From: Saccostrea cucullata
Lineage: Eukaryota
Assembly: GCF_032062105.1 (NCBI RefSeq)
Contig: NW_026939192.1
Span: forward strand, 248,001 to 312,000
DNA: 64,000 nt
Direction: 5' to 3'
In this document: piece after piece, positions 17,001-20,000 of the stretch
Layout: each line of letters opens with the position of its first letter
Numbering within the stretch: position 1 is the first letter of the stretch
Program-made: the position numbers

Positions 17001-20000
17001 GACACCAGGAAGTCTGTCACATCTGTTTTATATGTAACAACTAAGATGTAGAAAAATGATATTACTAGCCATCATTAATTTCCTTATTTTTCACTAATAT
17101 TTTGCTATCCCCTGCATATGGTATTTACATCTCCCAACCTTTATGATACTCAAGAGCATGCACTGAGTACATTCAATTTTTAGACCTAGGCAGGGTACTA
17201 ACAGAAAAGTTGATCTTGGAGGAATTTCAAAGTTAAAATATAAATTAACATTTCATTTATTCTATTGGTGTATAGAATAAATGAAATGTTAATTTATATG
17301 TTAACTTTGAAATTCCTCCAAGATCAACTTCATTGGAATTACATATAACCTTTCATTGTGACTTAAATATTTCATAATAACTGTCAGGGAGACCTATCAT
17401 TGGCAATCAATACCGCAGTTTCACTCATCCGCTATTCGATATTTGATAAAAAAAAAAAAGAAAGATGTTTTCCTATTTATATATATGAAAAATTTTATCC
17501 AGGCACGTAGCAACAGGGGGGCGGGGCCTGCCCCCCCTTTTTTTTGCCAACAATAATTTTACTATTGAAAATGTTCATTGAAAGGCTGGTTGCCCCCCCC
17601 CCCCCCTACTTTATAGTAGACTTAGTTAATATCAAGGGAAATGTAGTATAGAGAGCAGGAAAATTGGTACCGAAAGAAGTTGGCAATGGATTTTCGAGTT
17701 TGGGCAATTTTCCTTTTTTTTTTGCTTGTCAACTTCTTCAGGTAAGTCAATTTTTTTTTTTCTCTGGCTGACCTATCCCCCCCCCCCCCCGACACTTTCA
17801 AAAACGATGCTATTTATATATGTTATCGCTCATAGTGGTCACATGATATGAGCCCACTTCAATCTATACTGACTTTCTATGGATGCCTCCTTATAAATAT
17901 GACTAATAATGACTTTTCATTCCTAAAAAGATTACTATTAACGATAACATACCCTTGTAAAACCCACAGTAGCCTAGCTCAACCTACCCCAGGGCCCTAG
18001 AATTCTTGAAGATTTTCAATGACCCCAACATATTTTTTCTGAATGATTTTGAGGAATAAACTGAAATGACGACGACAGACAATAGACAAATTTTGAAGAA
18101 ACAAAAACTAAATGTTAACTCCTTTCCCAGAAGTGAAAAACGTATTCCGAGGGGCGGGGGGGGGGGGGGGGGGGGTTTAAAGCTTGAACATTTGCATGAC
18201 TTTTCATACCAACTTAAAACGGGTCCGCGTTTTCAACCGCGGGAGGCGGTGGGCAGGGTCACTGTTAGTGGGATTTTGGCATATATATTCAATAACTGAT
18301 AACTCATTCAAGGCCTCAGAATCATGAAGCAGACCTAGACTTACGTCAAATTTTCAAGAGCCTGTACAATGCTTATTAATAGTCAATTAAATCTCTATAT
18401 TTAAAGACAACAGCACTTTGGTGGTGCAATATTAAGTCACATTTTTATTCGGGATTATTTGACTTCGACAAAGTTTTTGACTTAAGCTAAAGATCTTTCA
18501 TGATCCCGGGGCCACCCCCCCCCCCCTCCACTTTAGATTGATCCACGCACGCAATATTAATAGCATTATGAAAAATTTAAAATAGTAAGTGTACATTTCA
18601 AACATGTCAAAATTATTCAGTATTAATCAAAAAAATATATAAATATATTAAAAAGCGGCGTGGTTGAAGTTTTTTTTCCCTAAAAAAAAACTATTCTCAA
18701 ATCTAACATATACCGGTATTATAATTCTGCAAATATCTCCATTCTTTTCTTAAGGCTAAATTTATCAATCGTGTATATTATTGCGAATGTAGCGCGTTAA
18801 AAGCAATTATGCAATTGCCAGGAAATAGAAATTAATAACTATATAATTTAACTGCTGTGAATTTTCACCCTCAGGATTTAAAGCTATCGGGAGATAAAGA
18901 AGACAAAATCACAACTCGCGCGACCTGACAGCTGTTACCAAGGCAACTGGCAGGTGACAATTCAGCGAGTTCTTTATCTGGAGGGGGCTTTTATCAACAT
19001 ACTTGGGACAACACATTGATAGGCGTACTCTCATTCAACTATCTAGTCCAATAATCCAGACATTACTATGACCAGGATAAGACGTTCAAACCGAATTTTC
19101 AACGAGAGAAGAGTGAATCTTGTGGATGCTGAGAGGAGATTCCGAAGATCTTGTGAACAAATCGTCATGTTAAACAGAGCTCTAACCTCCCTACAGAAAA
19201 GGTACGACAATGCCAAAAAAATGAACAAAAGGACCTTCCGCTATCATCTACGGCTTCGCTTGGCGGTCGTCGAGGGGATGAGAAACGTATATTTTGACTA
19301 TGCTCACGAAAAAGCCAAGCAGGTAGCCGAACTACGACGAGAATTATTTGGAGAAATTGTAGAGATTGTAGAGCAAGATACTTGAGCTTGTAACACAGTG
19401 CAGAACTTCTGAAAACCGGACTTTATTCAAAATCGATCTTTTTCAGGGTAGAAAAGACGTTAATGACAGCAAACGCGTTTTTGTTTGAATCAGCCATGAA
19501 TCAACATGATGCTTGCATGAACTGGTAAGAGAACACATGCAGGACTATATGTGGCATCTTATATTTGATGGATATAATATTTAGAAGTGCTTTAAAGGCT
19601 GAGGATATTTTAATTAACTGAGAGGCATGATAACCTCCTTTTGTGACCAAACAGAAAATTCCAAGAAATGTAGTGCTTTCAGTGACTGAGTAGTTCCTTT
19701 ACACAAAATATCTGAAGTTTCTTCGAGCTGAAGGTGCAATATTAACATTATAAATAACAGAGCAGAAAAATAAGATGTCAACATCTGCCCTTTTTAGGCA
19801 GGTTGCTGTAACAGCTACCTGTTTTGTGCTTAACATTTGTGCAATGATACACTCTAGAGCACACTCCAGTCCTTGATGAAAAGGCACTTATTTCGTATAC
19901 AGGGCACCTCCTACTTATTTTTACCACAAGGTACCTAACTCATTTTCAGGCACTCCCACTTCAAGCTCGTATTCTGTAAATATATCAATCATTAACCTAC

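What the first reader, a model, noticed from the sequence alone, without database searches (positions are those of the whole stretch)
18934..19385. Unknown 105-aa protein under a near-perfect X-box, adjacent to DNAI1: candidate new ciliary/sperm component
Seen: a compact Arg-rich helical ORF with GTTACCAAGGCAAC ~120 bp upstream, 3.4 kb downstream of DNAI1. Known: RFX factors drive ciliary genes through X-boxes, and many axonemal microtubule inner proteins are short basic helical proteins. Inference: an undescribed RFX target acting in motile cilia or sperm flagella. I cannot assign it to a named family.
Basis: partly seen in the sequence, partly recalled or inferred. Interest (0 to 1): 0.7.

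Follow-up and report, generated by a model that had tools for sequence, protein, structure and literature searches.

The report
Unnamed oyster-like hairpin protein with X-box
A real, conserved but unnamed 105-residue bivalve protein sits just downstream of a textbook RFX binding site, which makes it a fair candidate cilia or sperm gene, but nothing yet shows that it works in cilia.

Summary
A 105-codon ORF lies at 19068-19385 (+). A 14-nt X-box at 18934-18947 ends 120 nt before its ATG and matches the RFX consensus on both strands. DNAI1 lies upstream on the same strand.

The ORF is a real gene. It has 65 relatives at E<=0.01, and the ones with an organism name are all bivalve 'hypothetical proteins'. 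A profile of it finds 1053 clusters among 1.84 billion representatives.

The protein has no name or known family. It has no Pfam family and no sequence relative in any solved structure, axoneme maps included. The fold is a confident but generic two-helix hairpin (pLDDT 90). The protein is strongly basic, and relatives carry an acidic tail.

The X-box is the only consensus site in the window that is not inside a repeat. Six other X-box-like sites are copies of one repeat.

The ciliary or sperm role remains an inference from one motif. X-box conservation, expression and localisation could not be tested, because no eukaryotic genome collection was open. Adjacency to DNAI1 carries no weight, and DNAI1 itself shows no strict X-box in the window.

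Verdict: a sound candidate RFX target of an undescribed family, with function unproven. Interest is moderate.

The parts
18934..18947 (.). X-box: 14-nt imperfect palindrome (two RFX half-sites with a 2-nt spacer) that matches GTNRCC N0-3 RGYAAC on both strands
   Evidence: Its flanks do not align with the X-box-bearing repeat family found elsewhere in the window. The consensus is taken from a passage in PMC10530576.
18948..19067 (+). 120-nt ATG-free stretch between the X-box and the start codon. It is a putative core promoter and 5' leader; the transcription start is unknown. A possible splice acceptor (…CCAG) at about 19058 was read by eye only.
   Evidence: There is no canonical TATA box. 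One forkhead-core match (ATCAACA, 18993) is no more than the window-wide density predicts (1.71 per 314 nt).
19068..19385 (+). Single-exon coding sequence of the 105-aa basic helical-hairpin protein, stop codon included
   Evidence: One search gives the ORF. Searches show homologues aligning from residue 1 to about 100. One search gives the fold. One search shows it is the only copy in the window, by tblastn and by a family HMM run over all six-frame ORFs. One search gives GC 42.8% against 32.6% and 37.0% in the flanks.
19386..20256 (+). Putative 3' UTR, inferred only. The first poly(A)-signal-like hexamers are at 20044 (ATTAAA) and 20251 (AATAAA). The gene converges on the 3' end of NDUFA13, which is on the - strand.
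   Evidence: One search gives the hexamer positions. One search shows a 121-nt inverted repeat (19884-20004 / 20312-20432) in this stretch. One search places the GRIM-19 exon at 20610-20987 (-). There are no transcript data.

Best explanation
The region 18934-19385 is the promoter-proximal part and complete coding exon of a genuine single-exon gene.

The protein (shown): It has 105 residues and is very basic (pI about 10.7). It is predicted to fold into one antiparallel two-helix hairpin. It belongs to a large, unnamed protein family. The named members are bivalve 'hypothetical proteins', and there are more than 1000 sequence clusters in all. The invariant residues (R45, Y46, A49, R58, Y59, R62, E69, G70, R72) lie in the half of the hairpin next to the turn. 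In most relatives the basic hairpin is followed by a variable acidic Asp/Glu/Ser tail.

Regulation (inferred): An RFX dimer binds the consensus X-box 120 nt upstream of the ATG. This switches the gene on in cells running the RFX programme, meaning multiciliated or larval ciliated cells, or spermatids.

Action (inferred): The hairpin acts as a small docking or adaptor module. Its conserved, positively charged, turn-proximal face would bind an acidic partner such as the microtubule surface or another axonemal or sperm component.

Only the gene, the family, the fold prediction and the motif are shown. RFX binding, the site of expression and the partner are inferred.
For: Real gene:
- 65 proteins at E<=0.01 among 74 candidates, with 86-90% identity to the closest and 47-70% to named bivalve proteins (Pinctada, Mizuhopecten x2, Tegillarca, Mya).
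- The profile finds 1053 representatives at E<=1e-3, 577 at <=1e-10 and 34 at <=1e-30.
- A second search adds Dreissena and Mactra.
- The conserved core spans residues 18-93.

Fold: pLDDT 90.0, pTM 0.73, helices 2-52 and 55-94.

Charge pattern in 82 diverse members: hairpin median pI 9.8; tail median pI 4.05, median length 27.5 aa, composition D 17%, E 14%, S 13%.

X-box:
- Full match to the published dimer consensus on both strands, with 14-nt spacing like validated sites (passages in PMC10530576, and PMC3245922).
- Not part of the repeat that carries the other sites.
- The leader is ATG-free.

No competing identity: no Pfam family at its cut-off; no transposon hallmarks around the ORF and no second copy in the window; no non-coding RNA.
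Against: - No evidence of any kind places the protein in cilia or sperm.
- Profiles of the family find no relative among 177,635 distinct PDB sequences, which include many axoneme maps. The only hits are a molybdate-binding protein at E 0.26, RanGAP1 at 0.04 and a dynein heavy chain stalk at 0.82.
- Foldseek gives 0 matches at E<=0.001. The best is E 0.16, and 8 of the 47 listed rows are chains of axoneme maps. They sit among Rad50, PI3K p85 iSH2, ROP, STAT and PspA hairpins at the same E-values, so the fold is generic.
- A single-species X-box is a weak predictor (PMC2375033).
- RFX factors also drive non-ciliary genes. The titles and abstract openings in the listing name RFX7 tumour-suppressor targets and RFX2 spermiogenesis genes.
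- The textbook motile-cilia gene next door, DNAI1, has no site within one mismatch of the consensus in 1-10569. A strict X-box is therefore not a general mark of cilia genes in this stretch.
- Core axonemal proteins are usually old and single-copy. This family shows tandem paralogues (three Mya proteins on one chromosome-sized contig; several pairs of unnamed proteins on contigs of equal length) and fast divergence outside the core.
- The transcription start is unknown, so the site could be intronic or downstream of the start.
Confidence: 0.4

Rival explanations
1. The gene is real, but the X-box is unused, or is used by a non-ciliogenic RFX. On this view the protein is a small nuclear or nucleic-acid- or chromatin-associated adaptor. 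A basic hairpin would bind DNA, RNA or another acidic partner. The acidic Asp/Glu/Ser tail, rich in what look like casein-kinase-type sites, would modulate that binding, as acidic tails do in many nuclear proteins (this comparison is recalled, not tested).
For: - Basic hairpin plus acidic tail across 82 members.
- No relative among the solved axoneme components.
- Single-species X-boxes are often not functional (PMC2375033).
- RFX family members have non-ciliary targets (listing: PMC11344851 and PMC4498915, titles and abstract openings only).
- Neighbouring genes have mixed functions: DNAI1, NDUFA13, a rhodanese domain.
Against: - A both-strand full-consensus 14-nt palindrome 120 nt before the ATG is unlikely by chance (about 0.001 for this promoter).
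- No DNA- or RNA-binding family is matched.
- The window's own copy has almost no acidic tail.
Confidence: 0.35
2. The gene belongs to a fast-evolving, tandemly duplicating, lineage-restricted family. Its role would be reproductive (for example a sperm-specific protein under diversifying selection) or selfish or transposon-associated. The X-box would then be either a spermatid RFX2-type element or incidental.
For: - 1053 clusters at 50% identity for a roughly 100-residue domain.
- Several members lie on the same contig: Mya MAR_014602/04/07, and pairs of unnamed proteins on contigs of equal length.
- Tails and N-termini are very variable.
- One representative (P0090, 401 aa) carries a SWIM-type zinc-finger segment upstream of the domain in one open frame. 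The SWIM label is my reading of its Cys/His pattern; it was not scanned against Pfam.
- X-box palindromes are spread by a repeat in this genome.
Against: - There are no terminal inverted or long direct repeats around the ORF, and no second copy in 64 kb.
- The X-box flanks are unrelated to the repeat.
- The core is strongly conserved between distant bivalves, at 47-70% identity.
- Only 1 of the 148 new representatives printed shows the SWIM fusion. It may be an ORF-caller read-through, because the usual start methionine of the family lies inside it.
- No viral fold match at E<=0.001.
Confidence: 0.15
3. The ORF is a chance open frame and not a gene.
For: The window holds 35 stop-to-stop frames of >=90 aa, so length alone is not significant.
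Against: - Homologues score at E 1e-52 to 1e-21, including annotated proteins of five bivalve genera.
- The conserved columns are specific.
- The fold is confident.
- GC is raised over the ORF.
Confidence: 0.02

Closest known systems
X-box (RFX/DAF-19/dRFX) target genes of the ciliogenic programme
   Same: A 14-nt imperfect palindrome fully matches GTNRCC N0-3 RGYAAC. It lies within the first 150 nt upstream of the start codon, like validated sites (PMC10530576; PMC3245922).
   Different: No evidence of RFX binding, of conservation in orthologues or of ciliated-cell expression. The gene product has no orthologue among known ciliary genes.
Small helical microtubule inner proteins and other ~100-130-residue helical chains in solved axoneme maps (Foldseek rows 9cpb_6D, 8iyj_V9, 8otz_F5, 9fqr_FO, 9cpc_3Q, 7rro_C5, 8snb_8U, 9ijj_d)
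   Same: Similar size and a long antiparallel helical hairpin. TM-score normalised to the query is 0.41-0.77.
   Different: E-values are 0.16-1.1 and identity is 10-14%, no better than unrelated hairpins. There is no sequence relationship by profile search. The molecule names of these chains were not shown to me.
Generic antiparallel coiled-coil hairpins (Rad50 hook region, PI3K p85 inter-SH2 domain, ROP, PspA/Vipp1)
   Same: Same two-helix topology, with TM-score normalised to the query of 0.70-0.82.
   Different: No sequence similarity and unrelated biology. This shows only that the fold is common.
Pfam DUF7863 (PF25263) and TBCA (PF02970)
   Same: Weak local matches. DUF7863 scores E 8.2e-4 and 19.5 bits on residues 44-104. 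TBCA is hit by 5 of 82 members at E<=1, best 0.0029.
   Different: DUF7863 is below its 25-bit cut-off. It is matched by 7 of 20 close relatives at E<=0.1 but by only 1 of 82 diverse members, the window protein itself. The TBCA hits are scattered, like the other coiled-coil noise (ZapB, HMMR_N, Uso1).

Membership tests
RFX/X-box regulon | Sequence matches the RFX dimer consensus GTNRCC N0-3 RGYAAC | tested here: met
   GTTACCAAGGCAAC at 18934-18947 matches on both strands. The consensus is quoted from PMC10530576.
RFX/X-box regulon | Site lies in the proximal promoter of the gene | tested here: inconclusive
   The site ends 120 nt before the ATG with no intervening ATG. The transcription start and any 5' intron are unknown because there are no transcript data.
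RFX/X-box regulon | X-box conserved in sequence and position in orthologous promoters | not testable with these tools
Only protein sequences of orthologues were available.
RFX/X-box regulon | Expression depends on RFX, or is shared with ciliary genes | not testable with these tools
   No expression data are reachable. Literature searches found no paper with X-box + RFX + mollusc and none naming the orthologues' locus tags.
Axonemal microtubule inner proteins / solved axoneme components | Detectable sequence homology to a chain of a solved axoneme | tested here: not met
   hmmsearch with profiles A1 and A2 against all PDB sequences at E<=10 returned only 6nio_A (0.26), 9b62_G (0.04) and a dynein heavy-chain stalk, 7kzm_A (0.82).
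Axonemal microtubule inner proteins / solved axoneme components | Specific structural match | tested here: inconclusive
   Foldseek against PDB gave 0 matches at E<=0.001. Axoneme chains appear at E 0.16-1.1 among many unrelated hairpins.
Axonemal microtubule inner proteins / solved axoneme components | Physical presence in isolated cilia or flagella | not testable with these tools
   Needs proteomics or localisation.
Pfam DUF7863 | Score at or above the family's gathering cut-off (25 bits) | tested here: not met
   19.5 bits. 1 of 82 diverse family members match at E<=0.01.
Transposon- or virus-derived ORF | Flanking terminal repeats, multiple copies, or similarity to transposon or viral proteins | tested here: not met
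   No flanking inverted or direct repeats bracket the ORF. There is a single copy in the window. No Pfam transposase domain was found. BFVD Foldseek gave 0 matches at E<=0.001. The one SWIM-linked relative, P0090, remains unexplained.

The most novel reading that the evidence does not exclude
The 105-residue hairpin is the founding, still unnamed member of an invertebrate-specific family of RFX-driven axonemal proteins. It would be either a sperm- or cilia-specific microtubule-associated or inner protein, binding through its conserved basic face. It would be absent from every axoneme solved so far because those come from vertebrates, a sea urchin and protists. Its tandem duplication and divergence would then reflect rapid evolution of sperm flagella or of specialised bivalve gill cilia.
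Probability: 0.2. Interest if true: 0.6.

Novelty: new member of a known kind. Interest (0 to 1): 0.38.

Why it matters
If the X-box is functional and the protein is axonemal, this would add a lineage-specific component to the motile-cilia or sperm-flagellum parts list of lophotrochozoans. In these animals gill and larval cilia are central to feeding and dispersal, and almost no ciliary genes have been tested directly. It would also show that the RFX X-box rule can be used for gene discovery in molluscs.

Independently of function, the finding flags a large, well-conserved protein family. It has more than 1000 clusters, a confident fold and invariant Arg/Tyr/Glu/Gly positions, yet no Pfam model, no structure and no literature.

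If the X-box proves unconserved, the finding reduces to one more uncharacterised small coiled-coil protein.

Tried and rejected
- **Pfam on the ORF, 20 close and 82 diverse relatives**: only sub-threshold DUF7863 and scattered coiled-coil noise (TBCA, ZapB, HMMR_N, Uso1). Rejected as identities.
- **PDB sequence and profile searches**: nothing credible.
- **Foldseek against PDB and BFVD**: no match at E<=0.001; generic hairpins only.
- **ESM Atlas with the ORF and with distant relative P0184**: best score 0.81, or no usable hit. One 51-member mollusc cluster at 0.80 is probably the family itself.
- **Cluster look-up of 10 distant relatives** and a search seeded with P0184 (68 proteins): no names. 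The family's range beyond bivalves is therefore unknown.
- **Homodimer prediction**: no verdict (score 0.01, below the mark, controls not run). It says nothing either way.
- **Paralogues in the window**: none.
- **Transposon hallmarks**: none around the ORF.
- **Rfam and tRNA scans**: only two sub-threshold miRNA-like hits on a hairpin at 17212-17325.
- **Forkhead motif beside the X-box**: one core match, against 1.71 expected per 314 nt. Not evidence.
- **X-box at the DNAI1 5' side as a positive control**: none found.
- **Frames 15067-15294, 15581-15748 and 15489-15638**: no PDB match, so the DNAI1 stop is read by eye only.
- **Literature:** X-box + RFX + mollusc, 0 papers. DUF7863, 0 papers. 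Six orthologue locus tags, 0 papers. RFX + Crassostrea + cilia, 15 papers, of which 10 were listed and none read beyond the listing.
- **Not done:** The window holds no N, and nothing in it was taken for human.
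Full report
**1. What is there**

The window has 64,000 bases, no N and 33.3% G+C. At 19068-19385 on the + strand it carries an ATG-to-TGA open frame of 105 codons. The frame opens after a stop at 19044-19046, so 19068 is its first ATG.

The motif GTTACCAAGGCAAC lies at 18934-18947 and is unique in the window at <=1 mismatch. The 120 nt between the motif and the ATG contain no ATG. That is true of 11.7% of 120-nt windows here.

The ORF has 42.8% G+C against 32.6% upstream and 37.0% downstream. The protein has 19 Arg, net charge +11 and pI 10.66.

**2. Is the ORF a gene?**

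Length alone does not show it, because the window has 35 stop-to-stop frames of >=90 aa. Conservation does.
- A word-indexed search found 65 proteins at E<=0.01 among 74 candidates. The closest are 86-90% identical over the whole length and come from unnamed assembled records.
- Five hits carry an organism name, all 'hypothetical protein' of bivalves: Pinctada imbricata, Mizuhopecten yessoensis (two), Tegillarca granosa and Mya arenaria. They are 47-70% identical.
- A profile of 20 members, scored against 1.84 billion cluster representatives, found 1053 proteins at E<=1e-3, 577 at <=1e-10 and 34 at <=1e-30.
- A profile of 82 diverse members found 138 proteins at E<=0.001 among the 7998 candidates scored. 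Of the 120 listed, seven carry an organism name, and Dreissena polymorpha and Mactra antiquata are the new genera. All seven are bivalves.
- Nothing in the window was taken for human.

**3. The protein**

The conserved core runs from residue 18 to 93. R45 is invariant and C29, Y46, A49, R58, Y59, R62, E69, G70 and R72 are nearly invariant.

AlphaFold2 on the 20-sequence alignment gives a confident antiparallel hairpin of two long helices, 2-52 and 55-94, with pLDDT 90.0 and pTM 0.73. Most conserved positions lie in the half next to the turn.

Across 82 members the hairpin is basic (median pI 9.8). It is followed by an acidic tail (median pI 4.05, median 27.5 residues, D+E+S = 44%). The window's copy ends about ten residues after the hairpin.

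**4. What it is not**

- It has no Pfam family. DUF7863 scores 19.5 bits against a 25-bit cut-off. It is hit by 7 of 20 close relatives at E<=0.1, but among 82 diverse members only by the window protein itself. TBCA is hit by 5 of 82 at E<=1, among similar coiled-coil noise.
- It has no relative by profile search among 177,635 distinct PDB sequences. That set includes the mammalian, sea-urchin, Chlamydomonas, Tetrahymena and trypanosomatid axoneme maps that answered my DNAI1 queries.
- Foldseek gave no match at E<=0.001 in PDB (best 0.16) or in BFVD (best 0.075). Eight of the 47 PDB rows shown are chains from axoneme maps. They stand at the same E-values as Rad50, PI3K p85, ROP, STAT and PspA hairpins, so this reflects a common fold and not kinship.
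- The two Atlas queries gave nothing usable.
- No transposon features bracket the ORF, and there is no second copy in the window.
- No RNA family or tRNA overlaps it.

**5. The X-box**

The published dimer consensus is GTNRCC N0-3 RGYAAC (passage in PMC10530576). Validated nematode sites are 14 or 15 nt long (passage in PMC3245922). The site matches this consensus on both strands.

Three strict sites occur in the window against 0.26 expected, and 0 of 300 shuffles reached three. A looser scan against a recalled perfect palindrome found 8 sites at <=3 mismatches against 1.84 expected.

That excess is misleading. Six of these sites (57791, 58217, 58358, 58511, 22887, 22998) share flanking sequence, so they are copies of one repeat that carries the palindrome. 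The flanks of the 18934 site are unrelated to that repeat. It stands as an independent, non-repeat site.

From I estimate about 0.001 for a strict site falling by chance in the 250 nt before a given ATG. Allowing for the handful of genes in the window raises this to about 0.006. The site is thus unlikely to be accidental, but function does not follow from that.

In Drosophila a degenerate X-box in one species was 'not predictive'. Only after demanding conservation and a restricted consensus were 16 of 25 tested genes true targets (PMC2375033, abstract and passages). The forkhead-core match 45 nt downstream is no more than the background density predicts.

**6. Surroundings**

The upstream gene on the same strand is DNAI1. 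I searched its exons one at a time and built no joined model. Exons at 5811-5972, 10823-11182, 12580-12960, 13210-13476 and 13448-13600 match bovine DNAI1 residues 63-91, 272-359, 497-576, 576-612 and 610-653. A probable last exon ending at 15641 is read by eye only.

Downstream, on the opposite strand, lie exons of NDUFA13/GRIM-19 at 20610-20987 and 28341-28604. Further on are a rhodanese-domain exon and a doublecortin-domain gene.

DNAI1 has no site within one mismatch of the consensus anywhere in 1-10569. Only about 60 N-terminal residues remain to be encoded upstream of 5811, so its promoter is probably inside the window. Adjacency to DNAI1 is therefore no argument for a shared programme.

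**7. Reading**

The best-supported account is a genuine single-exon gene of an undescribed family, with a probably meaningful RFX site in its proximal promoter.

From established knowledge of RFX biology, the likeliest setting is ciliated cells or spermatids. A very basic hairpin with a conserved polar face would suit docking on an acidic partner such as the microtubule surface. I put this at 0.4.

The main rival, at 0.35, is that the site is unused or serves a non-ciliogenic RFX, and that the protein is a nuclear or nucleic-acid-binding adaptor. The basic-module-plus-acidic-tail layout fits that equally well.

A third reading, at 0.15, stresses the family's tandem duplication and diversity and one SWIM-linked relative. 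It points to a fast-evolving reproductive or selfish family.

**8. What stayed unchecked**

- X-box conservation in orthologues was not tested.
- Transcript structure, expression and localisation were not tested.
- AlphaFold DB fold search and HHpred were not available.
- No supplementary files were consulted.
- Searches found no paper combining X-box, RFX and mollusc, none on DUF7863 and none naming six orthologue locus tags.

**9. Verdict**

This is a sound candidate worth the cheap checks of promoter alignment and expression. It is not yet a ciliary protein.

In kind it is a new member of known classes: X-box genes and small coiled-coil hairpins. As a family it is undescribed. Interest: 0.38.

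Noticed in passing
57791-57804, 58217-58230, 58358-58372, 58511-58524; 22887-22900, 22998-23011: Six X-box-like palindromes, two of which fully match the RFX consensus, sit in copies of one roughly 145-nt repeat with shared flanks. Four copies are clustered at 57.7-58.6 kb and two are inside the NDUFA13 gene span. A repeat that spreads RFX-type sites would inflate any X-box count in this genome.
   Followed up: partly
48604-48628: GTTGGCATGGCAAC is one mismatch from the consensus. It is followed directly by a forkhead-like ATAAACA, about 1.5 kb beyond the doublecortin-domain exon 46331-47119 (- strand; Pfam DCX 1.3e-11). This may be an RFX/FOX-type promoter of a DCX-domain gene. Whether it belongs to that gene was not established.
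   Followed up: partly
1-10569: DNAI1, a standard motile-cilia gene, shows no site within one mismatch of GTNRCC N1-3 RGYAAC upstream of or within its first exons. The exon for residues 63-91 lies at 5811-5972.
   Followed up: partly
20610-20987 and 28341-28604 (- strand): These are exons of NDUFA13/GRIM-19 (Pfam E 1.1e-9 and 3.5e-7). The gene converges on the 105-aa gene, so the 3' ends of the two genes may overlap.
   Followed up: no
19884-20004 / 20312-20432: A 121-nt inverted repeat, 88% complementary and 307 nt apart (MITE-like), lies in the putative 3' UTR region between the ORF and NDUFA13.
   Followed up: no
17207-17330: A 59-nt inverted repeat, 98% complementary with a 6-nt loop. It gives only sub-threshold miRNA-family hits (33 and 31 bits against gathering scores of 84 and 90).
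   Followed up: no
62497-64000: A 49-nt tandem repeat of 30.6 copies at 93% match runs to the window end. It overlaps an open frame (62330-62710) that would encode a repetitive peptide.
   Followed up: no
31906-32781: Arrays of a 21-nt palindromic unit, up to 20 copies, lie just upstream of a rhodanese-domain exon (32906-33187, +).
   Followed up: no
Protein P0090 (relative, not in the window): One 401-residue representative has a Cys/His pattern that reads like a SWIM-type zinc finger, then a Lys-rich linker, in one frame upstream of the family domain. The family's usual start Met lies inside it. It may be an ORF-caller read-through of a transposon fragment, or a real fusion. The SWIM label is my reading and was not scanned.
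   Followed up: no
Proteins P0065, P0214, P0282 (Mya arenaria MAR_014602/07/04): Three family members lie on one chromosome-sized contig with neighbouring locus tags. P0214 (284 aa) scores 256 bits, which suggests two domains or a fused gene model. The family duplicates in tandem.
   Followed up: no
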